Positions 30,265-64,000 are shown, numbered from the stretch's first letter. The stretch: 64,000 nucleotides of DNA from Oxynema aestuarii AP17 (GCF_012295525.1 NZ_CP051167.1:5557299-5621298); one strand, 5' to 3'. Program-made: numbers and translations. Notes: a model not told the origin generated them from the letters alone.

Positions 30265-30313
30265 ACTTTTGATTTAAAAGCGAATTTAACTTTTATTTTA
30301 ATAAATCCAAAAA

Positions 30314-45569: not shown

Positions 45570-45590
45570 GTTTTTTCCTCTATTTTGAAT

Positions 45591-45835
45591 AGTCTACACT
45601 GAATCTACTATGAGTCTACGCTGAATCTATCATCAGTCTACAGTGAATCTACCCTCAGTCTACAATAAATCTATCATCAGTCTACAGTGAATCTACCCTC
45701 AGTCTACAATAAATCTATCATCAGTCTACAGTGAATCTACCCTCAGTCTACAGTGAATCTACCCTCAGTCTACAATAAATCTATCCTCAGTCTACACTGA
45801 ATCTACCCTCAGTCTACACTGAATCTACACCTAAT
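45591..45835. repeat. iteron array B: 11 contiguous 22-bp direct repeats (cAGTCTACagtGAATCTACcct) in the promoter region of the RHH gene
   Basis: Two alternating unit variants (cagtctacagtgaatctaccct / cagtctacaataaatctatcat). The GTCTAC core is shared with array A. Three inverted GTAGAC hexamers follow at 45925-45960. Confidence 0.8.
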
Positions 45836-46158
45836 CCGACATTGCTCCCCTAGAATTTTTCACTCCACTCTACTCCTCCGGCTGCAACCCCTAGTTTGGC
45901 TGTGGGGGGAAGCGGCACATCCCCTTCAAGTGTAGACAAACAAGTAGACTACTATTCAATCCTGTAGACGTTCGTTTTCTTCTTCCAACTCGGTGAGCCG
46001 TAACCGGAGTTCAGCCAGCGCCATCCCGATTTTCTCCTCCAATTCGTTGATGCGGTTGTTGAGCCGGTTCGACTCCCTTGCATCCAAATCCTCATCGCAA
46101 AGGGGCAAACGGGGTTTGAATAGCAACCATGCAGAAACTTACGCTAAGGCTAAAAGCC

Positions 46159-49185: not shown

Positions 49186-49287
49186 TCTGTGACTGGCTGT
49201 TTGTACCCGTAAGACTATAATCTATTTGGTACACTGAAAGGGAACGATAGCATTAGGGTTTTCACTCTTGTTTCACAGAGGGATTAA
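49186..49287. promoter_or_regulatory. putative res (resolution) site / divergent tnpA-tnpR promoter region
   Basis: 102-bp interval between divergent tnpA and tnpR. Contains the inverted motif tgtaccc...ggtaca (tgtacccgtaagactataatctatttggtaca). The position is canonical for Tn3-family res sites. Confidence 0.45.
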
Positions 49288-49935
49288 TTGGTACAAAAAG
49301 TTGCTATCTACTGTCGGGTTTCGACTTCTGACCAGTCCTGTTCTCGCCAAGAACGTGACTTGGTTGCTTATGCTGAATTAGCTGGCTATCAAGTGGTTGG
49401 GATTTGGAAAGAAACGGCTTCTGGGAGTAAGCATCGCCTATTACAAAGAGACCAGATCCTGAAGTTAGCTCAAGCTCGTGCCATTGATGCGGTGCTGGTC
49501 ACTGAACTGACTCGCTGGGGTCGCAGCACTTTAGATTTGATTCATACATTGCAGGATTTAGCTCATTGGCGAGTCTCGTTGATTGCTCAAACTGGAATTG
49601 AGTTTAGTTTAGACACGCCTCAAGGTAAACTGATTGCCAATGTTATGGCTACTCTGGCTGAGTTTGAGCGCGATTTAGTTCGAGAGCGGGTGCGTTCAGG
49701 TTTGGCTGCGGCTAAGGCACGTGGAGTTAAGTTGGGTAGACAGCCTGGGCAACGGGTGAAAGCTGACCGTTTAGAGAACAAGGTTTTGCTTCTGGTTGAG
49801 CAAGGTCACTCCTATCGGGCGATCGCCAGACAGCTTCATCTGAGTAAGACTACAGTTAATGACATTGTGAAGCGACATAGGCAAAAAACCGCTCCATCTT
49901 TGACTGGCATAAGCACAGAAGATTCTGAAAGCTAG
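49288..49935 (+). CDS. tnpR: serine recombinase (Tn3-family resolvase)
   Basis: VAIYCRVSTSDQS catalytic Ser motif and C-terminal HTH (GHSYRAIARQLHLSKTTVNDIV). 215 aa. Probable TTG start. Confidence 0.9.
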   Translation: MVQKVAIYCRVSTSDQSCSRQERDLVAYAELAGYQVVGIWKETASGSKHRLLQRDQILKLAQARAIDAVLVTELTRWGRSTLDLIHTLQDLAHWRVSLIAQTGIEFSLDTPQGKLIANVMATLAEFERDLVRERVRSGLAAAKARGVKLGRQPGQRVKADRLENKVLLLVEQGHSYRAIARQLHLSKTTVNDIVKRHRQKTAPSLTGISTEDSES

Positions 49936-50264
49936 AAGTATTACCCAGTAAGGATTTCAGCCTTAGCGTAAGTTTCTGTACGATTGCTACTCAAACGCCC
50001 AAACCCTGAGCAAGGCACTGGCGAATAAAGATGGAAATCTGCTCCGTGGCAGTGGTCCCCTCATCCTGGCAAAGGGCCACAAAAGATTGCCACTCCTCCG
50101 GATCCATTCGGAGTGAAATCGGTTTTCGGGTCATAACTTTTCGTTTCCCACGTCAATCCAGTATTGCCAATACAAGCGTATTACAAAAAAAGGGAATTGC
50201 CGATACAGGGCCTTGGGGGACTGGGGGCCTTTGAGGTGGGTTCTACTAGATTTAAGGTAAACTG

Positions 50265-50291
50265 GTGTAAATAAGGGACCCTTATTTACAC
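50265..50291. promoter_or_regulatory. perfect 13-bp inverted repeat with 1-nt spacer (gtgtaaataaggg a cccttatttacac) 22 bp upstream of the truncated serine recombinase gene
   Basis: Perfect palindrome, followed by the RBS-like aggaaaggtagg and the ATG at 50313. Candidate recombinase binding or crossover site, or an operator. Confidence 0.45.
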
Positions 50292-50312
50292 ACAAGAGGA
50301 AAGGTAGGGGCC

Positions 50313-51032
50313 ATGACGAAAGGTTTTGATAACAGTACAGTAATCTATATTCGGGTATCCACCGATGAGCAAGCGAAAGAAGGGGTCTCTATCCCGGCCC
50401 AGGTAGAAAAACTGACGGCCTACTGTAAACAAGCGGGTCTCAGGGTAGTCTCCACGATTATTGACGATGGAGTCAGTGCGGGGAAGTTTCTGAGCACTCG
50501 TCCTGGGGGTAGCCAGTTGGTTGAGTTGGTCCGGTCGCGCCAAGTCAAAAATATTGTGGCGGTCAAGCTCGACCGTCTGTTTCGGAGTGCCGCCGATGCC
50601 CTCACCAGCGTTGACAATTGGGATAAGCTGGGGGCATCGCTCCACCTCTTAGACTTCAATGGGATGAGCTTGGATACGTCCAGCCCGATGGGGAGGATGA
50701 TGTTGACGATGATCGCGGGCTTCGCGGAACTCGAAAGAAATCTCTGTAAACAACGGACTAAAGACGCTATCCAACATAAGAAAGCGAGTAAGCAGAAGTA
50801 TTGCCGGAGTGTTTACGGGTATCAAACTTTAGAAGATGGAACAATGGTTCCAGACGCATCTGAGCAAGAGGCGATCTGCATAATCAAGATGATGCGATCA
50901 TCGGGTGCAAGTCTTCGAGCTATCTGTTCTAAGCTCACCGAACTCGGTTACAAAACCAAGCGTGGCGGGGTTCAATGGTATGCCGCTACTATTAAGGGAA
51001 TCCTAGAAAATGATATCCACCAACTAGCTTAA
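50313..51032 (+). pseudogene. large serine recombinase, truncated after ~239 aa
   Basis: Resolvase catalytic domain (VIYIRVSTDEQ). The start of the recombinase domain ends at ...GVQWYAATIKGILEN and then terminates (DIHQLA*). Zinc-ribbon and coiled-coil domains are missing. Confidence 0.65.
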
Positions 51033-51298
51033 AACATGAGCAATTTAGAAAAGGACATCATAGAAGCCTTAAGGGGTAAGGACGGCATCTTCCCTACTAG
51101 AATACGCGATTACATACGCACTAAGCATTTCTTAAACTTCGGAGATGGGCCAAACGTCGCACTCTTAATGTCAAAAAAGCTCAGGGTCTATATTGGCGAG
51201 CAATCAGCAATAGAAACTGGGTATTTGCGACCAAAGGGGAGCAGCCAAAAAAGCTAGTTTTACACACAGAGTTTGCGACCAGTAGTAACAAACATCTG

Positions 51299-51604
51299 TT
51301 GGTAAAAGGCGATAGAAGCCCCTATGAGGGCGACTTAGTTTATTGGAGTAGAAGGTTAGGCAGACATCCTGAATTACCTAACAGACAAGCGATACTTTTA
51401 AAACAACAACAAGGTAAGTGCGCTTGGTGGGGACTACACTTTCTTTCAGGAAATGTAATGGAGGTTGACCATAAAATCCCACTTTCTCAAGGAGAAAAAG
51501 ACGAGTGGGTTAATCGTCAGCTATTACATCGACATTGCCACGATGAAAAGACTGCTGCTGACGGCAGTCAGAAGTCCGTTATTGACAAAGGGATTGCACA
51601 TTGA
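51299..51604 (+). pseudogene. group II intron-encoded protein fragment (DNA-binding/HNH endonuclease domain only)
   Basis: KCAWWGLHFLSGNVMEVDHKIPLSQGEKDEWVNRQLLHRHCHDEKT is the characteristic En-domain motif (C..C...EVDHI.P...G...N...LH..CH). A degenerate domain-V-like sequence follows (agccgtgtgcggtgaaaatcgc...ccggtttc). The reverse-transcriptase domains are absent, so this is a 5'-truncated copy. Confidence 0.6.
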
Positions 51605-51822
51605 GTAGCCGTGTGCGGTGAAAATCGCTCTTCCCGGTTTCGGAAGAAAGGGGTGGAATGGTAACATTCCCCTCGACTCTATCTCTCGGCTTTACCCCTC
51701 TATCTCTCGGCTTTACCCCGGATTCAGCCGGTGTTGGTGAATGGGTGATTTCACGCTAACTCAAAATCCAGCCAAACGTAGACTCATTTAATCCACCAAT
51801 TTTCTAGTATTCACTAACATAA

Positions 51823-52245
51823 AATCTTACTATAGATGATAATCAAGTTCAAGGAACAATCACGGGAATTACATTTACCAATCCCGAGGATGGCTACACA
51901 ATTGCCCAACTCACCTCGCCTGAGCATGGCACAATCACGGTCATCTTTAATCTAACTGTCAAGAAAGGGCAAAAGCTGATTGTAACGGGATTATGGAAGA
52001 ATCATCCTCGCTATGGCAAACAATTTCAAGCTCAAACTTGGAAGGAAGAAAAGCCCACCACTTTGCTTGGAATTGAGCGCTACTTAGGCGATGGACAAAT
52101 TCCCGGGATTGGTCCAGGGTTGGCTAAAAAGATTGTTGCTTATTTTGAAGAGCAAACGCTTTCAGTGATTGAGAACCAGGTCGAGCGGTTGATTGAAGTG
52201 CCGGGTATTGGCAAGAAGAAAGCCGATCAAATTCAGGCTGTTTGA
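51823..52245 (+). pseudogene. RecD2-type SF1 helicase, N-terminal ~140 aa only
   Basis: GTITGITFTNPEDGYTIAQL...LIVTGLWKNHPRYGKQFQAQTW...GIERYLGDGQIPGIGPGLAKKIVAYFEEQTLSVIENQVERLIEVPGIGKKKADQI. This is the N-terminal OB and helix-hairpin-helix region of RecD2. There is no ATG, and it stops after the HhH motifs with no helicase domains. Confidence 0.65.
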
Positions 52246-52363
52246 TCTGCAAAAGCAAAGTTAGGAGCATTTTTTCGACGTGGGTTCAAGTTGAGTGCTT
52301 ATCTTATCAGGATGGCTCGTCGTTCGGCCACCTGTTTGGTGGATCCCACTCCTCATCAATTTG

Positions 52364-52762
52364 TTAACTTTCCAGATTCTCTCTGTTCTGAGTAAAACAT
52401 TTGGAAAGTAAGTCTGCTACCCACGATCCCACATTTGTTGTACCATTCCAGTCAGGAACCTTTTCGTCGTCGAGTTCAACTTTGAGGCTATCTTCTAGGA
52501 AAAGAACAATTTCAAGAAGGTCCCAGTCACAAGGCTGAAGGCGAGATAACTCCCCAAATTTATCATTTGGATATATTTTTTCAGGGGGAACTTGAAACAT
52601 ATCTCCTAACTTTGAGCGATAGTCTTTGACAACTTTTTTCAATTTAGTGCCTGAAAAGCCAAGTTCAGACAAAAAGTCTTCATCGGTCATTCGCGGACGC
52701 TGTAAAAATTCCTCTAACTTTTTTTTAGAGTTGAACCAGAAAAGCATAAACTCTCTTTTCAC
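52364..52762 (-). CDS. putative immunity protein for the orphan Rhs C-terminal toxin
   Basis: 132-aa acidic cytoplasmic protein. AT-rich. Immediately 3' of the orphan Rhs C-terminal cassette. Assignment by position only. Confidence 0.4.
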   Translation of the reverse strand: MKREFMLFWFNSKKKLEEFLQRPRMTDEDFLSELGFSGTKLKKVVKDYRSKLGDMFQVPPEKIYPNDKFGELSRLQPCDWDLLEIVLFLEDSLKVELDDEKVPDWNGTTNVGSWVADLLSKCFTQNRENLES

Positions 52763-52775
52763 CTGCTCATTGTTT

Positions 52776-55532
52776 TTAGTTGTTTGTCAAGCCATACTGG
52801 TGGTCGTAGGTTTTTCTTATTCTCGCTCCTGACGCATAACCAATAGTGAATCCAAAAAGAAAACCTAATGCGATAAAAGTAGTTGATTGACCGTATTTCA
52901 ACAAAACTTTCGCTTGCGTTGCGAAGCCTTGACCAACAACTCTAGCTATTTCATGTCTTCTCCATATCGCTCCACGTATCAGCGCATCATCCACAATGGT
53001 AATGGCAGTGGTGAGGGCAGTACCTAATGTAACTTCATAGTCGGGTTCTAAAAGCCCTCCAGTAAAGCCAAGTGCAAAGCCTCCGATTAGTGCTGCCGCA
53101 GTTGTAGAATGTCTTGTGAGTGCCTTTCTCCATAATTCCTGAAAACCCCGAGTCAGAATTGGTCCTAGACCTGCTGGAGTTAGATAGAAGGCTCCGCCAA
53201 GCATAGCTCCGGCAGCGGCTCCTCCTACGGCTCCTACCAGTGCAAACTTTAAAGTCTCTTTGCTAAAGACTTCACCTGACTTATAGGCCCCGTAATAACC
53301 GCCTCCTACTGCACCAGCGAGACTGCCAATTATCGTACTGCCTGCTAACACCTCTGTCAAAGCAAAGAAACCACTAGGATCAACATAATTAACCGGATTC
53401 GCATTCCCATACAAATACTTATGCAGAGTAATCGGCTCATTAAGACGTCCCTCATAAGTATCCCGGCGAGTAAACCGGCCAATCCCCGCATCATAATAGC
53501 GTTGTCGCAGATAATATTGCTCTAAACTCTCATCATACTGCTCCCCTGCAAACAAAAACTCATTTTCAATACTACCAGAAGATGCCACCAGATTCCCAAA
53601 CGCATCGTAACTGTAAGCATTTGTAACCTCCCCACCTTCATCCGTTAGCAACCTCGTACTACCCAGTCCATCCACTAAGTAGAACGACTCACTCCCATCC
53701 CTTTCCTGAGAAATCAAATCCAGGCCATGCAGATAGCTGACAGCAAGCGTATCATCCACATACTCTGACAACACCTCAGCATAGGGACGATTCTTATCCA
53801 CGAGGTACTCCGTTGTCACCCCATTCACCGTCGAACTGACCCGAATATTGTCAGTATCGTAGGAGTAACTGATGACATCCCCGGTTGATGTTGTCGCCCC
53901 AACCAAACGATTCTCCTTATCCCAGGAGTAAGTCGCATTCCCGATGACATTATTACTTCCATCCTTCTCAATACGTTCTATCGTATTGCCATTGTCGTCA
54001 TAACGATACTCGTAGACACGAACTACATTCCCATCTAGAGTCAACTCTTTCCGAACCAGGCGATCGCTCTCATCGTAAACATAAGTCGTCGTCCCCTCAA
54101 CCGAATCAATCCGACTCAAGCGATTTCCCACCGCATCATAGGTGTACTCTATCGTGCGGTTCCCATTTACGGGGTCAGCGATCGCCTCTTTAGTTAGACG
54201 ATACAAATCATCATATTCATACTCTACTTTCCGGCCATCACGTTCTTCAACAACGCGGCGATGTCCTACTGGGTCAAGAGTATAATCGTAACTAGCGATG
54301 AGCGTTCCATCCTTGACATAACTCACCGATTCCAACCGACTCAATTCATCGTAAGTCCGAGTTTCCACCACTCCATTCGGTAACTCAGTCCGGATTAAAT
54401 TGCCAACTTCATCATAGGAATAACTCGTGACTCCAGCATCATCCGTCACCGTTTTCAGACGATTTTGCTCCTCAAAAGCGTATTCTATCGTTCCCGTCGG
54501 TGTCGTTACAGAAGTCCGATTTCCAGCAGAATCGTATCCATATTCAATCGAAGCACCACTGGTTAAATAAGGCCCATCCGGGTCAGTCCGAGAAAGCAAA
54601 CGACCGAGTTCATCGTAGGAGTAACTCGTCACCCCGCGACTATCTGTTATGGTTTCTAGTTGTCCGGTTGGGGTATAGGTGAAACTGGCAATTGGCGTTT
54701 CTCCCACCCGTTTTTCAATGAGACGATTTTGAGCGTCATAGTTATAAGTAATGGTGTCCCCATTGAAGTCGGTAACGCTAAAAGTGTTGCCTACTGCGTC
54801 ATATTCTGTTGTAGAACGTTGAGTGTCAGGTAACTCGACGGCAGTGCGACGACCCAGGTTATCATACTCGTAATTAGTCCGATGGTTGTTGGCATCCTCC
54901 TGCCAAATTAATCGACCCGATTCATCGTAACCATACTCAGTCCGGATTTCTTCGCCGTTGAGGAACTGCACCACATCCGTCAAGCGACCAAGTGCATCGT
55001 ATTCATACTCGGTTTTATTCTCTGCTTGGTCGATCGCAGCAACCCGACGACCGAGTGCATCGTAAATTGTTTCTGCCTTAGTTCCATCAGCAAAATGCGT
55101 TGCAACTAAGCGTCCCAGATTATCGTAAACGAACCGAGTCGCATGACCTTGAGCATCAATTTCTTTGACTCGCTGTCCTGCATTATTATACTCAGACTTG
55201 CTACGCGGATTATCTGATAAATCGTCTGGTGTATCATCCGGATAAATCGTCTCTATCAAACGACCTGCATCATCGTAACGATACTCAGTCCGATTACCGC
55301 GTTGGTCTATATTCGCCTTAACTTGGCCGTTTTTATTGTACTCCGTAACCGAACGAGGATTGTCAGTTAAATAGGTAGGTAAGTCATCCGGATAAACAAC
55401 TAGACTCCAATCAATCGTTGCCGCAGTTTTTCCAGGTGCAACCGCGTCGATAAACTGTTGTAAAGTATCGGTTTTATCAAGATAAATTGTCTCGGTTAAC
55501 TGTCCCGCCGCATCGTATTTATAATGAATCAC
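52776..55532 (-). CDS. Rhs/YD-repeat protein, N-terminally truncated orphan copy with distinct glycine-zipper-rich C-terminal tip
   Basis: Starts inside the YD repeats (MIHYKYDAAGQL). Many YDxxGR(L/V) repeats. Conserved core end RYYDAGIGRFTRRDTY...PVNYVDPSG. A ~200-aa C-terminal tip rich in GxxxG/AxxxA and hydrophobic segments (SLAGAVGGGYYGAY, GAVGGAAAGAMLGGAF). Confidence 0.85.
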   Translation of the reverse strand: MIHYKYDAAGQLTETIYLDKTDTLQQFIDAVAPGKTAATIDWSLVVYPDDLPTYLTDNPRSVTEYNKNGQVKANIDQRGNRTEYRYDDAGRLIETIYPDDTPDDLSDNPRSKSEYNNAGQRVKEIDAQGHATRFVYDNLGRLVATHFADGTKAETIYDALGRRVAAIDQAENKTEYEYDALGRLTDVVQFLNGEEIRTEYGYDESGRLIWQEDANNHRTNYEYDNLGRRTAVELPDTQRSTTEYDAVGNTFSVTDFNGDTITYNYDAQNRLIEKRVGETPIASFTYTPTGQLETITDSRGVTSYSYDELGRLLSRTDPDGPYLTSGASIEYGYDSAGNRTSVTTPTGTIEYAFEEQNRLKTVTDDAGVTSYSYDEVGNLIRTELPNGVVETRTYDELSRLESVSYVKDGTLIASYDYTLDPVGHRRVVEERDGRKVEYEYDDLYRLTKEAIADPVNGNRTIEYTYDAVGNRLSRIDSVEGTTTYVYDESDRLVRKELTLDGNVVRVYEYRYDDNGNTIERIEKDGSNNVIGNATYSWDKENRLVGATTSTGDVISYSYDTDNIRVSSTVNGVTTEYLVDKNRPYAEVLSEYVDDTLAVSYLHGLDLISQERDGSESFYLVDGLGSTRLLTDEGGEVTNAYSYDAFGNLVASSGSIENEFLFAGEQYDESLEQYYLRQRYYDAGIGRFTRRDTYEGRLNEPITLHKYLYGNANPVNYVDPSGFFALTEVLAGSTIIGSLAGAVGGGYYGAYKSGEVFSKETLKFALVGAVGGAAAGAMLGGAFYLTPAGLGPILTRGFQELWRKALTRHSTTAAALIGGFALGFTGGLLEPDYEVTLGTALTTAITIVDDALIRGAIWRRHEIARVVGQGFATQAKVLLKYGQSTTFIALGFLFGFTIGYASGARIRKTYDHQYGLTNN

Positions 55533-55690
55533 CCGTCCCGCTTCATCAATAGTCGCTCGTTGGCGTCCTCCCTTATCGTAAACATTGATAGTCCGGGGGT
55601 TATCGTTAGGATTTTCTGGAGTGTTGTCGGGATAAATCGTTTCGACTTTCGTGTGGCTCTGCCCACCCTACCATCTATTTATAACTTTTT

Positions 55691-56830
55691 TTAAAATGGA
55701 ATCCTTGCCTCAAGTTCTGGAAACTTTAAAATCAGTTTTGTTAATGCTTTAGCTGCTGCATCTTTTACCTCAATATCGCTATCGCTTAAAGCTTCAATCA
55801 GAGGTTCTACTGCTCTTGAATCTTTGATTTCACCTAATGCCCATGCTGCCTTCTTCCTAATCTCTTTTAAAGCCCACGCTTTTATATGTTTAATTTCGAT
55901 GTCAGTCGCTCTATGACTTGTGGTGGTAAGTTCAGCTATTCGCTCGTTTTTTAACCGACAAAAATCACTTTCTGGATTTAAAATTTTAATTAGATCGGGG
56001 AGAGCTTGTGGATCGCCTAACTCGCCCAAAATTTCAATTGCCCTTGTTATAAACATCATAATTATTGATAGATCGTTGTTTTGTTGGCTTGATTGCTGTA
56101 TGGCGTTGCTTAAAATTTTTACGGTTTCTAAACTTTTGAATTCTACAAATTCGTCTGAAAATAATTCTAATATCTCCCAAGTTATTGGCTGAAATTTTTT
56201 AAGATTTTTAACGGCTAATTCTCCTAACTTGGAATTATAGTTTCGCCAGATTTGACGGACTCGTTCGGGATAAGAAGCAATATAAGAACGCTCGTAGGCT
56301 TCAGCATCGTGATAGTAAGCGCCTGTTTCATAGCACTCTGCCATTGTTAGCATCATACTTGTTAAACTAGCATATTTTTTTATTGTTTCAGGCCATACTT
56401 CAAAATCTAAAAAAATTACAGGATAATGAAACTCCTTGTTTATGCGACTCATTGTAATTACACCTTGTTGTGGACCTTGAGGAGGGTAAAAAATAGAAAA
56501 ATAGTTTAATTTGTAACCACTTTCAGCTTTTGAGTTTGCAAGACAGCCATAGTATAAAATTTGACCGATTTGTAATACTTCTTGCAAAGGCTTAAAAGTC
56601 CAGTTTTCAAAAATCCAAGCTGTTTCTTTACACAAGTCTCCTTTTACTGCACCATTTCTCCATTGGTAGAGTTCATAGAGTTCCGGAGGTACTTTAACGG
56701 GTAAATTTTTAACTAGCTCGTCTATTTCATTTTTTGACAATCCGGGCTGTAAATAATCCACCAACCAGGGTTTATATTGTTCTATCCAGCTTAATATTCG
56801 GTTTAAGGCATCGGTCAGTTCTGTACTCAT
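55691..56830 (-). CDS. SMI1/KNR4 (SUKH-1) family immunity protein with C-terminal HEAT-like repeats
   Basis: The N-terminus (LPVKVPPELYELYQWRNGAV) is the SUKH hallmark. The C-terminus has HEAT/PBS-lyase-like repeats (EPLIEALSDSDIEVKDAAAKALTKL). Very AT-rich gene directly 3' of the main Rhs toxin gene. Confidence 0.7.
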   Translation of the reverse strand: MSTELTDALNRILSWIEQYKPWLVDYLQPGLSKNEIDELVKNLPVKVPPELYELYQWRNGAVKGDLCKETAWIFENWTFKPLQEVLQIGQILYYGCLANSKAESGYKLNYFSIFYPPQGPQQGVITMSRINKEFHYPVIFLDFEVWPETIKKYASLTSMMLTMAECYETGAYYHDAEAYERSYIASYPERVRQIWRNYNSKLGELAVKNLKKFQPITWEILELFSDEFVEFKSLETVKILSNAIQQSSQQNNDLSIIMMFITRAIEILGELGDPQALPDLIKILNPESDFCRLKNERIAELTTTSHRATDIEIKHIKAWALKEIRKKAAWALGEIKDSRAVEPLIEALSDSDIEVKDAAAKALTKLILKFPELEARIPF

Positions 56831-56844
56831 AACTCATAACCTTT

Positions 56845-58395
56845 TTAAAATGGATACCATAAATTATTATTGTTTATATTTAGCTTTTGACCCTCTCGAT
56901 CTATCCAATGCGTCTGATCGTCATTAACTTGAACCCCAAACCAACTTTCTTTGGGATGGTTAGAGTTAACAGGAGCGGACTTGTAAAAGTTTAAAAGGAA
57001 ATCACCTTGGCTTTGATTTTGGGTTTCATTTACAAGTCTTAAACTAACCTTGCCTGCATCATAATTCAAAGGGCCTCCTTGCAAAGTTGAATTGTATGGG
57101 TACTCATCACACTGCCGATTTTGGAATTGTGGTTGCCATACGCCTTTAATCCACTGACAATTTCCTTCTACTGCATTATACCATTCCCGTGGTCCACCAC
57201 TTCCTACTGGGCTTGCAGGGCCCCTCCATTTAGTCCACCCTGGAAGAATACGAGCTAAGAAAGACTGCCCAGTTTGGACAATAGCCTCCTGCGTATGTTG
57301 CCTTATTTCCGGTACCTCGTCTCCCCAAACAATAACTGGGAATCCCTCAAAATCACAGTTACCAGCCCCCACCGTTGTGTTGCACTCTTCAACCTTTTTT
57401 CTAAGAACCTGATAATTATTTTCAGTTATGGGCAAACCCAGGAACGTATTAACTCCACTATGCTTAATATTTTTCAAATAGCCAGGAACTACAACATCAT
57501 CTCCATCGAATCTTCTCAAGTTTCCAATAGGGGCACTTGGAGAAACAAGCTGCATTGCGGCTAGAACAGTAGCTATTTTCATGGTTATGGATGTGTCCCC
57601 ATAGGTAAAAAGACCAGTGGGATCCGTTAAATTCACAGGGTTGCCATGAACGTAGGGATACTTCGCCAAAGACAGTGGCTCCACTAACATCCCCTCAAAG
57701 GGGTCTGTGGCACTAAAACGTCCAGTTTCCGAGTCGTAATACCTCGCTCTTAAATAATACTGCTCCAAATTTGGATCGTACTGTTCCCCAGCAAATAGGT
57801 AGTGATTGACCGTATTGCCTGTAGACCCCAGTAAATCGCCATAAGCCTCGTACTGGTAAGTATCTGTGACCAAACCAGCAGCATTAGTCAAAGCCCTCGT
57901 ACTACCCAATCCATCAACATGATAGAAAAAGCGATCGCTGCCTCGCTTTTGGGAAACCAGGTCGAGTCCGTAGGTATAAGACGCCGTTACCATACCATCT
58001 GGAGTGTACTCCTCCAATACCTGAGCGTGAGGCCGATTGGTATCGAGCAAATACCGCGTCTCCTGACCATCCACAATTGACGCCACCCGCATCCCGTCAG
58101 CATCGTAGCGATATTCAATCTGTTGGGTTTCTCCCCCATCAGTAACAGAAGCCGTCAGCAAGCGATTTTCCTCATCCCAGGTGTAGCTAGCTTTGTCGGT
58201 ATCGCTTTTAAACCGGGAGAGGAGATTGCCGTTATTGTCATAAGTGTAGGTGGTTAGCTGACCATTAAGAGCTTCACTCAACAACTTGCCATTGTCATCG
58301 TAAATATAGGTAGTCAGTCCCTCTGACGAATCATTACGACTAACTCGGTTCCCCACACCGTCGTAGGTGTAATTAATCGTGCGATCGCCTGCCAC
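56845..58395 (-). CDS. C-terminal part of the main Rhs protein (YD repeats, core end, C-terminal toxin domain); in frame with 58423-62355 across a TGA
   Basis: Homologous to the orphan copy up to DPTGLF, then a different ~250-aa tip containing NRQCDEYPYNSTLQGGP, which resembles the DEYPF..GG motif of NucA/NucB-type DNases. Begins at a GTG. Confidence 0.85.
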   Translation of the reverse strand: MAGDRTINYTYDGVGNRVSRNDSSEGLTTYIYDDNGKLLSEALNGQLTTYTYDNNGNLLSRFKSDTDKASYTWDEENRLLTASVTDGGETQQIEYRYDADGMRVASIVDGQETRYLLDTNRPHAQVLEEYTPDGMVTASYTYGLDLVSQKRGSDRFFYHVDGLGSTRALTNAAGLVTDTYQYEAYGDLLGSTGNTVNHYLFAGEQYDPNLEQYYLRARYYDSETGRFSATDPFEGMLVEPLSLAKYPYVHGNPVNLTDPTGLFTYGDTSITMKIATVLAAMQLVSPSAPIGNLRRFDGDDVVVPGYLKNIKHSGVNTFLGLPITENNYQVLRKKVEECNTTVGAGNCDFEGFPVIVWGDEVPEIRQHTQEAIVQTGQSFLARILPGWTKWRGPASPVGSGGPREWYNAVEGNCQWIKGVWQPQFQNRQCDEYPYNSTLQGGPLNYDAGKVSLRLVNETQNQSQGDFLLNFYKSAPVNSNHPKESWFGVQVNDDQTHWIDREGQKLNINNNNLWYPF

Positions 58396-58422
58396 GGGGT
58401 CAGTAATCTTTTCTTCTATAAG

Positions 58423-61400
58423 TCAGTACAAGTCGTCATAGGTGTACTCAATTACTCGACCGTTATTTTCCTCCACCTTTGTCCGCTGTCCTGCTGCGTT
58501 TAAGGTATATCGGTAACTAAAAAGTGTCACTTCTTGACCCGTACTGGGTTCGACCTTTAAATTTTTCAAGAAGACTAGACGATTTAATTCGTCGTACTCG
58601 CGAAGTTCAATCGTGCCATTAGGGAATTCCGTTCGGGTGAGGTTGCCAGCTTTGTCATAAGCGTATTGCGTCACCCCTAAGTCAGGAGTGGTAACGGTTT
58701 CAAGTTGATTGTACCTGTCGTAAGTATAATATGTCGTACCAGAGGAAGTTGTTACTGAGGTAATATTGCCAGCCCCATCATAAGTGTACTCTATCTTACG
58801 CCCATCCGATTCAGTGCGCTCGATAAGTCGATCGCGCTCGTCGTACTTATAAGTGGTTGTCCGAGTCATTCCTGCCTCGATTTCCGTTACTGTGTGGCGC
58901 AATCCAGTAGGTGTGTAGGTGTATTCAAGGGACCTGCCATCGGGGAAACGTTCAGCAGTTAGATGGTTAAGCGAATCGTATTCGTAGGAAACGCTATCTT
59001 GGTTGAAATCCTTTGCACTCAGAAGGTTTCCTACAGCATCGTAGGTAGTTTGAGAGTATTGGAATTCGGGCAACACTGTTCCCACTCGACGTCCCAATTC
59101 ATCGTATTCGTAAGTGGTAACATCGCCGTTAGCATTTTTGATGCTGGTTAAGTTGCCACTGAAATCGTAGCCGTACTCAGTTCGTTGTTTCAGAGCATCT
59201 ACCACAGCTACGAGTCGTCCTTGAGGATCGTATTCAAACTCTGTTTTCTTGCCAACCTGGTCAGTTATCGAGGTGACGCGCCCTAAGTTGTCGTAAGTTG
59301 TTGTGGTGTAGGTATTATCGGGAAAGTGTGTTTCGCTCAAGCGACCCAACTCGTCATAGACAAAGCGAGTCGTATTTCCCATTTGGTCAGTCTCGCTAAT
59401 TTGATTGCCAAACTCATCGTAAGTTATTGTTTTGCGACGGCAACCGCAACTGCTGCGAGATTCAATTACGCGACCTAACGTATCGTATTCGTACTCATTT
59501 CGATTACCTCGTTCGTCAATCTCAGCTACGACCCAACCGAGTTCGTTGTATTCAGTTTTGGTTCTGGGGTTATCTGCTAAGTCATCTGGGGTATTGTCTG
59601 GATGGATGACTTCCACTAAGCGATCGAGCAAGTCATAAACAAAATAGGTAGTACGACCTGCTTGGTCTGTGAAAGAATGTTTGCGTCCCACCGCATCATA
59701 AGTAGTGACAGTGCGACTGCCATCGGCATAGTGAGTTTCAATTGGACGACCGACGCGATCGTAAACAAACTTGGTCGTGTGGTTCCGAGCGTTTGTTTCG
59801 CTTAACCGATTTCCCACTGAATCGTAGGTGTATTTAGTTTCATTGTTGAGAGCATCGCGCATAAGAGTCCGACGACCTGTTTTATCGTCCTCGTACTCGG
59901 TACGATACCCCCGCTCGTCAATTTTAGCTTTAATTTGACCAGCTTGGCTGTATTCTGTTTTAGTTCTAGGGTTGTCGGAAAGATTGTTAGGTGTATCATC
60001 TGGGTAAATAGTTTCTATTAGTCGATTTAGAGCGTCGTAGACGAAATGCGTCATTTGTCCTTGTTGGTCAAGGACAGCCACTTTTCGGCCTGCCTTATCG
60101 TAAACAAACCGCTCTAATGTTCCGTCAGGATATAAGGTTTCTTCAAGATGGCCTTTCTCGTTATAACGGTATTCGGTACGACGATTTTTTGTACCTTCTT
60201 CAACCAGAGCGGTTAGGTTGCCCAATTGGTCATATTCGTGGCGGATGACATGACCCGATGAGTCAGTTTTTGTCAAGACATTCCCTTTGCTATCGTATGT
60301 CCATTTGGTGACCAGTGTCTTTTTACCTTCAGGGGTGGTAACAGTAACGGTTTCAGTAAGTTGGTTGCCATTGTTGTCATAAGTGTAAGTCGTTTCATTC
60401 CCCAAAACATCAATTTGACGAGTGACATTGCCAAAAGAATCGTATTCAAATTGGGTGGTATTACCGTCGGCATCGGTGAGAGAAGTGACATTACCAAACT
60501 CATCGGTAGTTTGCTTGATAACTTTCCCTTGTGCGTTCGTGGTGCTGAGGAGGTTTCTTCTACTGTCGTAGGTGTAGGTAATGGTGTTCCCTAGAGGGTC
60601 AGTTTTAGTTAAGACTTGCCCCAAACTATTGTAAGTGTATCGGGCTACGTTACCAAGAGGATCGGTTATGGCGAGCAAGTTGCCATTACTGTCATAGTCA
60701 TATTTGATAGTATTGCCCTCTGGGTCAGTTTCACTTAGCAAGTTATTGTCTTTATCATAAGACTGCTTGCTAATTCCTCCTACTGCATTCACTTTTTGAA
60801 CTATATTCCCCCGCTCATCATACACATAAGTCGTCGGGTTCCCAAACACATCCAACACCGTTTGAGTCGAATTATCCGGGTCATAAACCAACTCAACCGC
60901 TTCGCCATTCACATCCAGCATCCGCTTCAATCGACCCGACTCATCATACTCGGTCCGTACCCCAGTTCGTCCCAACGGGTCAATGATTTCTTCTAAGTAA
61001 TGTTCTCGTTCCTCATGATACTCAAACCTTGTGGTATTCTCCTCGCGATCCGTAACCCCAACTAAATCCCCATTCTCATCATATTCATACTGAATCTTAT
61101 TCCCCTCCGGGTCAACTGCCGCCACAATCCGACCCGACGCATTGCGCTCAAACGTCACCGACTTCCCAGTAGAACTGAAAATCCCCTCATCCGAATAAGT
61201 CAGCGTATTGCCATTCGTATCCGTCACCGTCAATAAATCGCCAGTTGTCCCATCAATCACATACTCAATACCCTCCTTCGTTCTCAGCGTATAACTCCCG
61301 CCAAAGAACGAATTTGCTGGATTGTAAGGCGACCCACTCGGATGATAGTATTGACCCGTCTCCTGATTGTAAAGCAACTGAGTTTTTTGAGCACTCAACG

Positions 61401-62355
61401 TCACCTGTTCCCCATCATCCGTCTCAAACGCTGGATTGTAGAAAATCATGCTTTGGGGTAAAGGTGCTCCCATCCGCAACGCCTTGACAATCTCCGGATC
61501 CATCACAGGTTTGAACGTAAACCCAGTCCGCTTCCCACCGGGTAACGTCACGTAAACCCGCGTACCTTCCTCAAATCCAACTGAAGGAATCCCCGTCTGT
61601 TCGTACAGTTCATCCCGTCCCACAGAAGTCCGTAAATCTGTATCCCGGAACTCCAAGCGCCATCCATATCCAAAATCATCGGATTGGTTCGTGGTTAGCG
61701 TATCGTAAGTCCGCGTCAGGTTAATCGGAATCCCCGCTACTGGAACCTCCAAATCCGTAAACGATAAGCGGAAATTGCCTAATTTTAACTCCCCAGCAAC
61801 ATCCACCATTTGTTCTGTCGAAGCACTATTCCCACTTTCATCCGTCGCCGTCAACCGCAGAATGTAAGTATCATTTTGCAGCAGGGTCGGGTCAAACTCT
61901 GCCAATTTCCCATTGGTTATCTGAGAATTTCCCGATGCAATTTCGACAAACTCTCCACCGGATGCAGGTGCAATAGATAGGACGTAATTCGTCAAGTTGT
62001 CATCCGTTACCGTCCCAATAATATCGGTAAAATCGGTCAGCGGTTTCTCTCCAAGGGTGGGAGATAGTTCTACAATAGGAGGATTCAGGTCATTGGGGTC
62101 GTAAACCCGAATGTCAATGCTACTTTCACCCAAATTTCCCGCCGCATCTACCGCAACTGCTTTAGCGGTTAACGTTCCCAATTCTGAAGGGGTGTAACTT
62201 GCTGTTCCATTGGCAGTTAAGGTAACGGGAACTTCATCCACAAACAATTGGACACCTTCTACGCCAATATTATCGGTGGCATTAGTAAAGAAAGTGATGG
62301 GAGTGCCTAACGGGACTTCAAAATCGCCATCTACGATAAATACGCCTGAAGGCAA
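58423..62355 (-). CDS. N-terminal 1310 aa of the main Rhs/YD-repeat protein (Ig-like N-terminal domains plus YD repeats), ending at an in-frame TGA
   Basis: N-terminal beta-rich Ig/cadherin-like region, then tens of YD repeats. Ends ...YTYDDLY* exactly where the orphan copy reads YDDLYRLTKEAIADPV. The downstream ORF continues in the same frame (LIEEKITDPVAGDRTINYTYDG). Confidence 0.85.
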   Translation of the reverse strand: MPSGVFIVDGDFEVPLGTPITFFTNATDNIGVEGVQLFVDEVPVTLTANGTASYTPSELGTLTAKAVAVDAAGNLGESSIDIRVYDPNDLNPPIVELSPTLGEKPLTDFTDIIGTVTDDNLTNYVLSIAPASGGEFVEIASGNSQITNGKLAEFDPTLLQNDTYILRLTATDESGNSASTEQMVDVAGELKLGNFRLSFTDLEVPVAGIPINLTRTYDTLTTNQSDDFGYGWRLEFRDTDLRTSVGRDELYEQTGIPSVGFEEGTRVYVTLPGGKRTGFTFKPVMDPEIVKALRMGAPLPQSMIFYNPAFETDDGEQVTLSAQKTQLLYNQETGQYYHPSGSPYNPANSFFGGSYTLRTKEGIEYVIDGTTGDLLTVTDTNGNTLTYSDEGIFSSTGKSVTFERNASGRIVAAVDPEGNKIQYEYDENGDLVGVTDREENTTRFEYHEEREHYLEEIIDPLGRTGVRTEYDESGRLKRMLDVNGEAVELVYDPDNSTQTVLDVFGNPTTYVYDERGNIVQKVNAVGGISKQSYDKDNNLLSETDPEGNTIKYDYDSNGNLLAITDPLGNVARYTYNSLGQVLTKTDPLGNTITYTYDSRRNLLSTTNAQGKVIKQTTDEFGNVTSLTDADGNTTQFEYDSFGNVTRQIDVLGNETTYTYDNNGNQLTETVTVTTPEGKKTLVTKWTYDSKGNVLTKTDSSGHVIRHEYDQLGNLTALVEEGTKNRRTEYRYNEKGHLEETLYPDGTLERFVYDKAGRKVAVLDQQGQMTHFVYDALNRLIETIYPDDTPNNLSDNPRTKTEYSQAGQIKAKIDERGYRTEYEDDKTGRRTLMRDALNNETKYTYDSVGNRLSETNARNHTTKFVYDRVGRPIETHYADGSRTVTTYDAVGRKHSFTDQAGRTTYFVYDLLDRLVEVIHPDNTPDDLADNPRTKTEYNELGWVVAEIDERGNRNEYEYDTLGRVIESRSSCGCRRKTITYDEFGNQISETDQMGNTTRFVYDELGRLSETHFPDNTYTTTTYDNLGRVTSITDQVGKKTEFEYDPQGRLVAVVDALKQRTEYGYDFSGNLTSIKNANGDVTTYEYDELGRRVGTVLPEFQYSQTTYDAVGNLLSAKDFNQDSVSYEYDSLNHLTAERFPDGRSLEYTYTPTGLRHTVTEIEAGMTRTTTYKYDERDRLIERTESDGRKIEYTYDGAGNITSVTTSSGTTYYTYDRYNQLETVTTPDLGVTQYAYDKAGNLTRTEFPNGTIELREYDELNRLVFLKNLKVEPSTGQEVTLFSYRYTLNAAGQRTKVEENNGRVIEYTYDDLY

Positions 62356-62498
62356 TACTTGTACTAAGGGAGATATGGTATCGGAGGAAACTTCGAGTAT
62401 GAGGTTTCCGCATAGAGTTGGGGAATAAAGGGAGTCTAATGAAAGATCTGTTGACTCATGTTGTTTGATACAAATGGTGTTAAAATTAAGGCAGGAAC

Positions 62499-62975
62499 TT
62501 GGATTTAGGGAGATTAATGATGGATGGGGAAGAACTGCTCAGACGCTACGATGCGGGAGAGAGAGATTTTCGAGCAATTATTTTGCAGCATACTGACTTA
62601 AGCAATGTTAAGTTAGATTCGGTCAATCTAAGCGGTGCTTGCTTTTACCATGTCAACCTTCAGAGTGCTAACTTAAAAAATGTTAACTTAAGCAGTACCG
62701 AATGGTCGGACTGTAATTTATCGGTTATGCAATTCTGGTTATGTAATCTGAAAGATGCTACGATCGAGCAGTGTGATTTGGAGAGTGCCAGATTTTTTGA
62801 CTGCGATCTCAGAGGTATAAGAATTAGTCTTTCAAATGTAAGCCGTGCTGCTTTTATTAGAGTAAATTTTCAAGATGCTAAGTTGGGTGGTTCTGGCGAA
62901 GATCCTTGTGAATTCTGGGATGTTATTCGACCGGACGGAGTTTTTATATCCGGTTTTACTTACCATATAACTTGA
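62499..62975 (+). CDS. pentapeptide-repeat protein
   Basis: Consecutive A(D/N)LSx units: DLSNVKLDSVNLSGACFYHVNLQSANLKNVNLSSTEWSDCNLS... Confidence 0.85.
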   Translation: MDLGRLMMDGEELLRRYDAGERDFRAIILQHTDLSNVKLDSVNLSGACFYHVNLQSANLKNVNLSSTEWSDCNLSVMQFWLCNLKDATIEQCDLESARFFDCDLRGIRISLSNVSRAAFIRVNFQDAKLGGSGEDPCEFWDVIRPDGVFISGFTYHIT

Positions 62976-63130
62976 CCATACGCAACCTGAATAGTAAAGA
63001 CATTAAGTTAAAATAAATATGCTGGATAAATCGTTAAAAATTCATAACAAAAACCCCTTATAGAAGTCAAGTCAAAAAATTACAAAATAAGAATTGCTGA
63101 ACCAATATGCCCCCAAAATATAAAATGTAA

Positions 63131-63170
63131 AAATAGCGGTTCTCGTCTTCGTGAGGCCGCTATTTTTTTT
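63131..63170. terminator. bidirectional rho-independent terminator between convergent genes
   Basis: aaatagcgg-ttctcgtcttcgtgagg-ccgctattt stem-loop, followed by a T8 run and preceded by an A-run. Confidence 0.55.
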
Positions 63171-63178
63171 AGAAAAAC

Positions 63179-64000
63179 TTAGCTATTCAAAGTCTGCTGA
63201 ATAGTTTCTGGTAGATTTGACAGGAAATCAAAATTAAAGTCATAATCGCGAACTCGGTTACGCTCATTCAGAATGTGGGTCAGTTCTGGAATAGTGACTC
63301 GCCAGGTATCTGGGTTTCTCCAATCCGTTGGATTAGTGATGTTCCCGCGATTGTTGTTCAAAAACTGGGAAAATACATTCAGTGGATTGGCAATCCCTTC
63401 TGAGGATACATTATTCCAATCTGGTTCCGCTCTATTGGGGGTTATATATGCGAAACCTTCTATGTTTGACGAAGTAATATCGGCTCCTGGCTGTTCTAAG
63501 GCGATGATACTTTTCCACGTCCATTTAGGAATGTGAATTTCTTGGCTGACTAAATTGTCAGGGTTTGTATTTCCCCTATTTACATTCAGGTTAAGTAATT
63601 CGGGTACATTTGTTCTTGGTTGAGAATTATCATTATTGCCAAAAGCTCCAGCAAAAATATAAAGCTCTTCCCCCTGAGCAGCCCGTGGAAACACCACTTT
63701 ATCTTCTATATTGAACCAAGCAGAAGCATCTCTGGGATTGTCACTTCCCGACACAAAAAATCGATTATTATCCATTGATTGGGCAATCAAATTAGTTGTG
63801 AGGTAGGTTGATAACTGGTCTTTGGGGTGTCTTCGTTTATCGCGATCGGGAGCCAAATGTCCTCGATCCATTCCCAATCCTGTAAAAATATTTGCATCAT
63901 AGCTGGACAGGCCACTCGCTAATAAATCAGGGTCAGCTATAAATTCAGGTCTTCTTAGTAATCCTGTTGGGAATTCTCCCGGTTCGGGTTGTGGTTGTGT
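63179..64000 (-). CDS. DNA/RNA non-specific endonuclease (NucA/Serratia-nuclease family), 5' end beyond window
   Basis: DRGHLAP active-site motif (DRGH) and Asn-rich C-terminus. The reading frame stays open upstream to nt 64000; the track start at 63877 is a TTG. Confidence 0.7.
   Translation of the reverse strand, partial: TQPQPEPGEFPTGLLRRPEFIADPDLLASGLSSYDANIFTGLGMDRGHLAPDRDKRRHPKDQLSTYLTTNLIAQSMDNNRFFVSGSDNPRDASAWFNIEDKVVFPRAAQGEELYIFAGAFGNNDNSQPRTNVPELLNLNVNRGNTNPDNLVSQEIHIPKWTWKSIIALEQPGADITSSNIEGFAYITPNRAEPDWNNVSSEGIANPLNVFSQFLNNNRGNITNPTDWRNPDTWRVTIPELTHILNERNRVRDYDFNFDFLSNLPETIQQTLNS

What the first reader, a model, noticed from the sequence alone, without database searches (positions are those of the whole stretch)
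58423..58425. Single in-frame TGA splits the main Rhs gene exactly where the paralog has Arg
The 1310-aa ORF ends …YTYDDLY-TGA and the next ORF continues in the same frame (LIEEKITDPVAGDRTINYTYDG). The orphan copy reads YDDLYRLTKEAIADPV at this point. CGA to TGA is one transition. The options are a recent nonsense mutation (pseudogenisation, leaving a toxin-less N-terminal 1310 aa and a separately initiated C-terminal tip from the GTG at 58395), a sequencing error, or stop-codon read-through.
Basis: seen in the sequence. Interest (0 to 1): 0.55.

Follow-up and report, generated by a model that had tools for sequence, protein, structure and literature searches.

The report
Nonsense mutation in truncated Rhs toxin gene
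The in-frame TGA is real in this sequence, but it is a single strain-specific C-to-T change (a sister strain and a second assembly read CGA, arginine) in a cyanobacterial Rhs toxin gene that has also lost its front two-thirds, so it is ordinary gene decay, not stop-codon recoding.

Summary
On the minus strand a single TGA (window 58425..58423) separates a 1310-codon ORF and a 525-codon continuation in the same frame of one Rhs/YD-repeat toxin gene. Its tip is a NucA/NucB DNase, followed by a SUKH/HEAT immunity gene.

Two independent assemblies of the same locus read CGA at that codon with identical flanks. One comes from a genome that is 99.98% identical to the window in core genes. Among 120 homologues, 118 have Arg and 2 have Gln. 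TGA is therefore a derived CGA>TGA transition. It is one of only two base differences in a 5.7 kb near-identical tract.

In the sister strain the gene is an uninterrupted 5687-codon ORF. In the window, homology stops at 62397, inside an Ig-like domain, next to an unrelated nuclease/pentapeptide gene pair. About 3,840 N-terminal codons, the start codon and the promoter are missing there.

Nothing supports recoding:
- TGA ends 9 other long ORFs in the window.
- The sequence downstream of the TGA has no SECIS-like fold.
- No Rfam family matches near the site.

Best reading: a recent nonsense mutation in a Rhs remnant disabled by loss of its 5' end, with the immunity gene kept intact. A base-call error cannot be excluded without reads. 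Interest is low.

The parts
58423..58425 (-). In-frame TGA (codon 1311 counted from the TTG at 62355). It is derived from CGA (Arg) by one C>T transition.
   Evidence: Searches show the sequence. L001 and L002 read CGA with 30 nt of identical flank on each side; 118 of 120 homologues have R and 2 have Q.
58426..62397 (-). Upstream part of the Rhs remnant: Ig-like domains followed by the YD-repeat shell. Homology to the intact 5687-codon gene of the sister strain begins at 62397. The first possible start codon is a TTG at 62355.
   Evidence: PF05593 RHS_repeat, E = 6e-143, 21 stretches; alignment to L001 and the junction; stop codons and unrelated sequence lie upstream.
62397..62398 (.). Breakpoint. 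In the sister strain the Rhs reading frame continues upstream (...TQTFNLEVSSDTISP...). In the window, unrelated sequence follows, about 100 nt from a divergently oriented pentapeptide-repeat gene.
56845..58422 (-). Same-frame continuation of 525 codons plus the TAA stop: the last part of the YD shell, the RHS-associated core and the toxin tip.
   Evidence: RHS_repeat E = 4e-11; TEN_YD-shell; matches to solved Rhs structures 8h8a, 7q97, 8cp6 and 8qja.
57610..57639 (-). Core motif PVNLTDPTGL (PxxxxDPxGL) that marks the end of the Rhs core. It lies 262 codons downstream of the TGA.
56848..57609 (-). C-terminal toxin tip with a NucA/NucB-type DNase domain. The Pfam match covers residues 434-486 of the 525-residue piece, about window 57123..56965.
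   Evidence: PF14040, E = 3.1e-9, 37.7 bits against a cut-off of 23.8.
55691..56830 (-). Putative cognate immunity gene (SUKH-1/SMI1_KNR4 plus HEAT repeats, 379 aa). It is intact and its protein is identical in L001 and L002.
   Evidence: no DNA differences between 56845 and about 55500.
58187..58187 (-). The only other base difference from L001/L002 in the 5.7 kb near-identical tract: ACC>AGC, Thr>Ser.
52776..55532 (-). Orphan Rhs fragment (918 codons) that lacks a 5' end and carries a different, hydrophobic tip. It has Arg (CGT, 54200..54198) at the equivalent position. Homology to L001/L002 ends at 53371, at its core motif PVNYVDPSGF (53396..53367).
52364..52762 (-). 132-codon ORF directly downstream of the orphan tip. 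It is a candidate immunity gene by position only; it has no family match.

Best explanation
The TGA is a recent, strain-specific nonsense substitution (CGA Arg > TGA) in a Rhs/YD-repeat polymorphic-toxin gene. In this strain the gene is only a remnant lacking its 5' end.

The sister strain encodes one 5687-residue protein: N-terminal Ig-like and VWA-type domains, the YD shell, the PxxxxDPxGL core and a NucA/NucB DNase tip. The window keeps only the last ~1850 codons of it, next to an unrelated nuclease/pentapeptide gene pair.

Without a promoter, a start codon or an N-terminal delivery region, the fragment is not expected to make an exportable toxin, so a stop codon in it costs nothing. The stop removes the last 262 shell/core residues and the toxin from whatever is translated from upstream. 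The immunity gene downstream stays intact, as is usual for decaying toxin/immunity loci.

Shown: the TGA, its derived state, the 5' truncation and the intact immunity gene. Inferred: that the base is a real mutation rather than a base-call error, that the remnant is not expressed, and the order of the two lesions.
For: - Derived state. L001 (JGI 3300059096, a 6.3 Mb contig) and L002 (Logan SRR35642146) carry the same locus and read CGA with identical flanks. 118 of 120 homologues have Arg at this column.
- L001's genome is the same species and is syntenic with the window. Its MurC protein is identical, and 5557 nt of core DNA are 99.98% identical. That is about 1 difference per 5.6 kb. The 2 differences in the 5.7 kb near-identical Rhs tract (61108..55400) fit this ordinary divergence between strains.
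- 5' truncation. L001's gene call is 5687 residues, and the frame is open across the junction. Window homology starts at 62397 within '...NLEVSSDTISP', and the window has stop codons and unrelated DNA upstream. Full-length homologues of 2000-3200 aa align to the window's N-terminus only from their residue ~150-1350 onwards.
- The upstream neighbours are a stand-alone ~430-aa Endonuclease_NS gene and a pentapeptide gene. The same pair is conserved elsewhere, so they are not part of the Rhs gene.
- Standard genetic code: TGA terminates 9 other long ORFs.
- The immunity gene is intact and identical.
- Precedent: about 23.5% of T6SS auxiliary toxin/immunity clusters in Ralstonia carry loss-of-function mutations, including premature stops (PMC11481896).
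Against: - No reads or second assembly of this exact strain could be found. A consensus error at this base therefore cannot be excluded.
- With only two substitutions, no test of relaxed selection is possible.
- The window ends 1.6 kb beyond the breakpoint. The 5' part of the gene might still exist further upstream, which would mean an insertion into the gene rather than a deletion.
- The toxin tip and the immunity gene show no further decay, so either the lesions are very young or the tip is still under some selection.
Confidence: 0.76

Rival explanations
1. Base-call or consensus error in the window assembly. The true codon would be CGA and there would be no stop. The gene would still be a fragment lacking its 5' end.
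For: - Two closely related assemblies read CGA in an otherwise identical 60-nt context.
- The window's own genome is absent from every collection searched, so the base has no independent support.
- Another gene in the window, the STAND-WD40 gene, appears frameshifted near 33540, which might hint at assembly errors.
Against: - The window has no indels against L001 over 5553 nt of Rhs.
- At about 55035, both other assemblies share a frameshifting extra A and the window keeps the open frame. This argues against poor base quality here.
- The codon is not in a homopolymer.
- Real divergence between the strains (about 1.8e-4 per base) is, from general knowledge of polished assemblies, well above typical substitution-error rates. 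A true SNP is therefore more likely a priori.
Confidence: 0.17
2. The stop is real, but the locus still has a function. Two routes are possible. Either the toxin tip plus immunity gene is expressed from internal transcription and translation starts (for example the GTG at 58395 or a start further downstream) as a toxin-antitoxin-like module. Or low-level read-through of the weak UGA-C context yields some fused product.
For: - In Salmonella, main and orphan Rhs tips are expressed from internal promoters and start codons and act as type II TA modules (PMC7043789).
- The toxin tip and the immunity gene are undamaged, and the immunity protein is identical to that of relatives.
- From general knowledge (E. 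coli studies, not tested here), UGA followed by C is the weakest termination context.
Against: - There is no Shine-Dalgarno-like sequence before the GTG at 58395.
- The promoter-like matches are generic, and none stands out.
- The downstream C is simply the inherited CTT codon, also present in the CGA-bearing relatives.
- A product starting at 58395 would carry 237 residues of incomplete shell ahead of the core motif and would have no delivery domain.
- No expression data are available.
Confidence: 0.05
3. Programmed recoding: selenocysteine insertion, a dedicated read-through signal, or a genetic code in which TGA is a sense codon.
For: Only the bare fact that a single TGA lies in frame, with coding sequence continuing beyond it.
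Against: - The TGA is absent from both closest relatives and from all 120 homologues.
- The 111-nt stretch spanning the TGA (15 nt upstream, 93 nt downstream) folds no better than shuffled sequence (z = -0.34), and at least the 30 nt on either side of the codon are identical in the CGA-bearing copies.
- There is no Rfam match near the site and no tRNA gene in the window.
- TGA ends 9 other long ORFs in the window.
- The position is a conserved Arg of the YD-repeat motif (YDxxxRL), not a catalytic Cys/Sec site.
Confidence: 0.01

Closest known systems
Rhs/YD-repeat polymorphic toxin loci with orphan modules, diversified by C-terminal displacement (Jackson et al. 2009, PMC2935791; Poole et al. 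2011, PMC3150448)
   Same: - A YD-repeat shell, a PxxxxDPxGL core motif, a variable C-terminal nuclease tip and an immunity gene directly downstream.
- A further fragment lacking a 5' end, with a different tip and a small downstream ORF.
- Between strains, the homology of that orphan ends exactly at its core motif, so the tips differ.
   Different: - This is a cyanobacterial giant form (5687 aa in the sister strain) with He_PIG/Ig-like and VWA-type N-terminal domains, not the PAAR/VgrG-linked enterobacterial type.
- The two copies are too diverged (47% amino-acid identity, no DNA identity) for the homologous recombination that redeploys orphans in Salmonella.
Decayed toxin/immunity clusters with retained 'orphan' immunity genes (for example the Ralstonia T6SS aux clusters, PMC11481896)
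   Same: The toxin gene is inactivated by truncation and a premature stop, while the immunity gene stays intact. The locus sits among mobile elements: a Tn3-family element, resolvases and an IS605-family TnpB.
   Different: The organism is different and the export route is unknown. No T6SS genes are seen in the window.
Internally expressed Rhs-CT/immunity pairs acting as type II toxin-antitoxin modules in Salmonella Typhimurium (PMC7043789)
   Same: A toxin tip and an immunity gene that remain intact downstream of a non-functional or non-transcribed delivery part.
   Different: No internal promoter or start site has been shown here, and the enterobacterial P2 promoter sequence is not expected in a cyanobacterium. 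This is only a possibility.
Bacterial selenocysteine (UGA plus SECIS) or programmed UGA read-through
   Same: An in-frame UGA within a coding sequence.
   Different: The UGA is not conserved, there is no SECIS-like hairpin, close relatives have an ordinary Arg codon, and the residue is structural.

Membership tests
Rhs / YD-repeat polymorphic toxin | Many RHS/YD repeats forming the shell | tested here: met
   PF05593, E = 6.4e-143 with 21 stretches upstream of the TGA and E = 4.2e-11 downstream. Sequence matches to solved Rhs shells 8h8a, 7q97, 8cp6 and 8qja.
Rhs / YD-repeat polymorphic toxin | RHS-associated core ending in PxxxxDPxGL, followed by a variable toxin tip | tested here: met
   PVNLTDPTGL at 57639..57610. 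The tip has PF14040 DNase_NucA_NucB, E = 3.1e-9.
Rhs / YD-repeat polymorphic toxin | Cognate immunity gene immediately downstream | tested here: met
   A 379-aa SUKH-1 (PF09346) plus HEAT protein starts 14 nt after the Rhs stop. Its immunity function is inferred from family and position and was not assayed.
Rhs / YD-repeat polymorphic toxin | Complete, uninterrupted gene with its own start and N-terminal delivery region | tested here: not met
   In-frame TGA at 58425..58423. Homology to the 5687-codon orthologue begins only at 62397, with unrelated DNA and stop codons upstream.
Orphan rhs module (product of C-terminal displacement) | Fragment lacking a 5' end, with core, tip and immunity gene, lying downstream of a full-length rhs gene in the same orientation | tested here: inconclusive
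   The missing 5' end, the core, the tip and the immunity gene are all present. The genes immediately upstream are a stand-alone nuclease and a pentapeptide gene, not an rhs gene. The window ends at 64000, so anything further upstream is unseen.
Programmed UGA recoding (selenocysteine or read-through) | UGA conserved at the site among orthologues | tested here: not met
   CGA in L001 and L002. R in 118 and Q in 2 of 120 homologues.
Programmed UGA recoding (selenocysteine or read-through) | SECIS-type stem-loop directly 3' of the UGA | tested here: not met
   Minimum free energy -23.3 kcal/mol against a shuffle mean of -22.3; z = -0.34. No Rfam match in 50000-64000 apart from a weak group II intron hit elsewhere.
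Programmed UGA recoding (selenocysteine or read-through) | Sec machinery (selA, selB, selC, selD) in the genome | not testable with these tools
   Only 64 kb of the genome is available, and the window holds no tRNA gene.
Alternative genetic code with TGA as a sense codon (tables 4 and 25) | TGA not used as a terminator; in-frame TGAs in many genes | tested here: not met
   TGA ends 10 of 30 long ORFs, including housekeeping-type genes. No other single-stop split of a coding region exists in the window.

The most novel reading that the evidence does not exclude
The nonsense codon does not silence the locus. The undamaged DNase tip and its immunity gene would persist as an internally expressed, addiction-like toxin-antitoxin pair, as shown for Salmonella Rhs tips, or would be reached by leaky read-through of the weak UGA-C context. 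The 'dead' Rhs remnant would then still shape the cell's physiology and be retained by selection.
Probability: 0.05. Interest if true: 0.35.

Novelty: already known. Interest (0 to 1): 0.12.

Why it matters
This mostly closes a lead. The in-frame TGA is not evidence for stop-codon recoding, selenocysteine or an unusual code in a cyanobacterium. An annotator should mark the gene as a pseudogene or remnant lacking its 5' end, not as two genes and not as one 1836-aa protein.

The locus gives a clean small example of how polymorphic-toxin loci turn over between near-identical strains. The changes seen are truncation, point inactivation, imported mosaic segments and a swap of toxin tips at the core motif, while immunity genes are kept.

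Tried and rejected
Searches that found nothing:
- Exact-protein look-ups for the two Rhs ORFs, the pentapeptide ORF (two start choices), the 239-aa recombinase and the 918-aa orphan all returned nothing. The window's own genome is not in the collection, so there is no independent check of the base.
- A 33-nt pattern across the codon, with N at its first base, found nothing in genome contigs or metagenome contigs. A 36-nt pattern from just upstream of the breakpoint found nothing in metagenome contigs.
- The resolvase look-up only re-found L002.
- The first protein search did not return the near-identical orthologues (best hit 66% identity overall). They were reached only through the immunity protein.

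Ideas rejected:
- Selenocysteine or SECIS: no fold, no Rfam hit, no tRNA in the window.
- Repair or redeployment by recombination with the orphan: only one 165-nt stretch of 67% DNA identity exists between the two copies.
- A Tn3 end at the breakpoint: the GGGG-starting sequence at 62420 has no partner, and the real Tn3-family inverted repeats lie at 46111-46162 and 49948-49999.
- The upstream Endonuclease_NS ORF as the tip of a displacing Rhs gene: its homologues are stand-alone proteins of about 410-440 aa, and it is paired with a pentapeptide gene elsewhere too.
- A second in-frame TGA at 530-532: this is simply the end of one gene before a pilin-like gene.

Uninformative:
- The promoter/terminator scan.
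- dN/dS on the window lineage, with only 2 polarised changes.

Full report
OBSERVATION. The feature lies on the minus strand. Read 5'>3' on that strand, the sequence is ...GAG TAC ACC TAT GAC GAC TTG TAC TGA CTT ATA GAA GAA AAG ATT ACT GAC CCC GTG GCA..., that is ...EYTYDDLY*LIEEKITDPVAGDRTINYTYDG. The ORF list gives 62355..58423 (1310 codons, TTG start) and 58395..56845 (516 codons, GTG start) in the same frame. Joined, they make 1836 codons with one internal stop. Both halves are Rhs/YD-repeat sequence: PF05593 scores E = 6e-143 upstream of the stop and 4e-11 downstream. The downstream half ends in a NucA/NucB-type DNase domain (PF14040, E = 3e-9). A SUKH-1/HEAT protein, a typical immunity-protein family, starts 14 nt later. 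The core motif PVNLTDPTGL lies at 57639..57610, 262 codons after the stop. The stop therefore cuts inside the shell, before the core and the toxin. The orphan copy (55532..52776) does read YDDLYRLTKEAIADPV.

IS THE TGA ANCESTRAL OR DERIVED? Among the 120 best homologues from a 5.8-billion-protein collection, every one reads through the position: 118 have Arg and 2 have Gln. The residue is the R of the recurrent YDxxxRL repeat motif.

The decisive evidence came from looking up the exact immunity protein. It is encoded on two other assemblies, L001 (JGI 3300059096, a 6.3 Mb contig) and L002 (Logan assembly of SRR35642146). These align to the window at 98.2% and 98.6% identity over window 62397..53371 and 60334..53371 respectively. 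At the codon in question both read CGA, with 30 identical bases on each side.

L001's genome is the same species as the window and is syntenic with it. The window's MurC protein is found unchanged about 38 kb from the locus on the same contig, and 5557 nt of core DNA differ at a single base, 99.98% identity. So TGA is a derived CGA>TGA transition private to the window sequence.

HOW RECENT IS IT? Differences between the window and L001 across the Rhs gene are strikingly mosaic:
- 62397-61108: 70 differences, 5.4%, mostly synonymous.
- 61108 down to about 55400 (rest of the gene, the immunity gene and the start of the orphan): only two differences, both private to the window. These are the C>T at 58425 and a C>G at 58187, Thr>Ser.
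Two differences in 5.7 kb match the background divergence of the two strains, about 1 per 5.6 kb. The stop is therefore one of a handful of very recent point changes. The diverged blocks look like imported segments.

THE GENE IS ALSO TRUNCATED. In L001 the gene upstream of the immunity gene is called as a 5687-residue product. Its frame is open through all 3328 codons held in the locus and runs straight across the point where the window's homology begins...THAITIEVMDELGTTATQTFNLEVSSDTISPVVQVLPSG.... In the window, homology starts at 62397, within LEVSSDTISP. The sequence upstream is unrelated and full of stops. The first possible start is a TTG at 62355, with no recognisable N-terminus.

Homologues of full length (2000-3200 aa) align to the window's first 400 residues only from their own residue ~150 to ~1350 onward. 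The ~1800-aa homologues start mid-domain, on short contigs or at contig edges.

Upstream of the breakpoint lie a pentapeptide-repeat gene on the other strand (62499-62975) and an Endonuclease_NS gene that runs off the window end. The nuclease's homologues are stand-alone proteins of about 410-440 aa. The nuclease/pentapeptide pairing recurs in an unrelated contig. These genes are therefore not a displaced part of the Rhs gene.

Hence the window keeps only the last third of the gene, without promoter, start codon or N-terminal domains. The window ends 1.6 kb beyond the breakpoint, so I cannot say whether the missing 11.5 kb was deleted or pushed further upstream by an insertion. Either way the gene is broken at 62397.

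RECODING TESTS. All came out negative:
- TGA terminates 10 of 30 long ORFs in the window, including this one, and CGA is a common Arg codon.
- The window contains no tRNA gene.
- The 111-nt stretch spanning the TGA (15 nt upstream, 93 nt downstream) folds no better than shuffles: -23.3 against -22.3 kcal/mol, z = -0.34. At least the 30 nt on either side of the codon are unchanged in the CGA-bearing relatives.
- Rfam finds nothing near the site.
- This is the only stop in the window that splits a demonstrable single coding region. The one superficially similar case, at 530-532, is a normal gene end before a pilin-like gene.
Selenocysteine, programmed read-through and a variant code are therefore not supported.

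REAL MUTATION OR ERROR? The window's own genome is not in any collection I could query, so the base has no independent witness.

Three points favour a real change:
- The window shows no indel against L001 over 5553 nt of Rhs.
- Where the other two assemblies share a frameshifting extra A in the orphan, the window keeps the open frame.
- The site is not a homopolymer.
- The measured divergence between the strains is, by general experience with polished assemblies, well above substitution-error rates.

One point favours caution: a STAND-NTPase/WD40 gene elsewhere in the window is frameshifted near 33540. That could be real decay or an assembly flaw. I put a real mutation at about 0.76 and an error at about 0.17.

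MECHANISM AND CONSEQUENCE. Shown:
- The nonsense codon is derived and lies inside the shell.
- The N-terminal two-thirds of the gene are missing.
- The toxin tip and the immunity gene are undamaged.
Inferred: the remnant cannot produce an exportable toxin, so the stop is a neutral hit on an already dead gene. The order of the two lesions is unknown. The immunity gene is retained because it still protects against kin that carry the intact toxin, as L001's strain does.

Such decay is common. About 23.5% of T6SS auxiliary toxin/immunity clusters in Ralstonia carry loss-of-function mutations, including premature stops, and orphan immunity genes are frequent (PMC11481896).

The main alternative with some biological content is that the tip and the immunity gene are still expressed from internal starts as a TA-like pair, as in Salmonella (PMC7043789). 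Nothing here supports it beyond their intactness. The GTG at 58395 has no Shine-Dalgarno-like sequence ahead of it, and the promoter scan is uninformative.

COMPARISON WITH KNOWN SYSTEMS. The locus is a textbook Rhs array in layout: shell, core motif, variable nuclease tip, immunity gene, then an orphan fragment with a different tip (PMC2935791, PMC3150448). The between-strain homology of the orphan ends exactly at its core motif, PVNYVDPSGF at 53396..53367, with the homology end at 53371. It differs from the enterobacterial paradigm in belonging to the giant cyanobacterial class with Ig-like N-terminal domains.

The organism is a filamentous cyanobacterium. HIP1 (GCGATCGC) occurs 86 times in 64 kb. 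The best MurC match among GTDB species representatives is only 71-72%, to Laspinema, Phormidium and Oscillatoria.

VERDICT. Novelty: already known. Interest: 0.12.

Noticed in passing
about window 59624 (L002:712) and about window 55035 (L001/L002 orphan): The only two 1-nt indels among the three assemblies over the 9 kb shared Rhs region are both +1 insertions at the centre of a CGATCG (the HIP1 core). One is CGATCG>CGATTCG, which frameshifts the main Rhs in L002. The other is GCGATCG>GCGAATCG, which frameshifts the orphan in L001 and L002. Only 8 CGATCG sites occur in 9027 nt, so a uniform chance of both landing there is about 1e-5 to 4e-5. This may be a mutational hotspot at HIP1/GATC sites.
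   Followed up: partly
window 62397-53371 compared with L001 and L002: Divergence between near-identical strains (99.98% in core DNA) is mosaic. It is about 5.4% over 62397-61108, 2 bases over 61108-55400, about 5.6% over 55400-54200, and about 0 over 54200-53500. Homology ends exactly at the orphan's core motif (53371). Beyond that point the window has about 3.1 kb where L001 has about 0.3 kb, with a different toxin tip and downstream ORFs. This is recombination import plus a tip swap.
   Followed up: partly
window 62499-62975 (+) and 63179-64000 (-); L085:10001-11876: A NucA-like Endonuclease_NS gene with a DRGH motif, which runs off the window end, is paired convergently with a ~155-aa pentapeptide-repeat gene. 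The same pairing occurs in an unrelated metagenome contig inside a toxin-rich island. The pentapeptide protein, which has a DNA-mimic fold, might be the nuclease's inhibitor or immunity protein. This is speculation.
   Followed up: partly
window 31203-35541 (-): A STAND NTPase (nSTAND1) plus WD40 gene is split into two overlapping ORFs (707 and 781 codons) by a frameshift near 33540. The WD40 repeat continues in another frame...KGHIDGV / LIVAFSPNGELLASGS. This is either a second disrupted gene or an assembly error.
   Followed up: partly
window 46111-49999: A compact Tn3-family element: a 1008-aa DDE_Tnp_Tn3 transposase and a 215-aa resolvase, flanked by 52-nt inverted repeats that are 87% complementary and start with GGGG. 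It is also present in L001 and L002.
   Followed up: no
window 50313-51682 (+): A serine-recombinase N-terminal fragment (Resolvase plus Recombinase, 239 aa), a small HNH-endonuclease ORF, and a weak group II intron match (RF00029, 26 bits against a gathering score of 40) directly after it. This may be a degraded group II intron or a mobile-element graveyard, and it lies in the window-specific 3.1 kb.
   Followed up: no
window 62250-61150 compared with P0001 (Oscillatoria sp. HE19RPO): The first ~366 residues of the Rhs remnant are 95.9% identical to a partial Rhs protein of Oscillatoria sp. HE19RPO. The MurC proteins of the two organisms are only about 71% identical. This suggests lateral exchange of Rhs gene segments between genera.
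   Followed up: no
window 45547-45876 and 29686-30892: A tandem array of 11/22-nt units (19 overlapping copies of a 110-nt register) lies next to the Tn3 element and varies against L001. There are also two tandem Uma2-family (PF05685) genes of 192 aa each.
   Followed up: no
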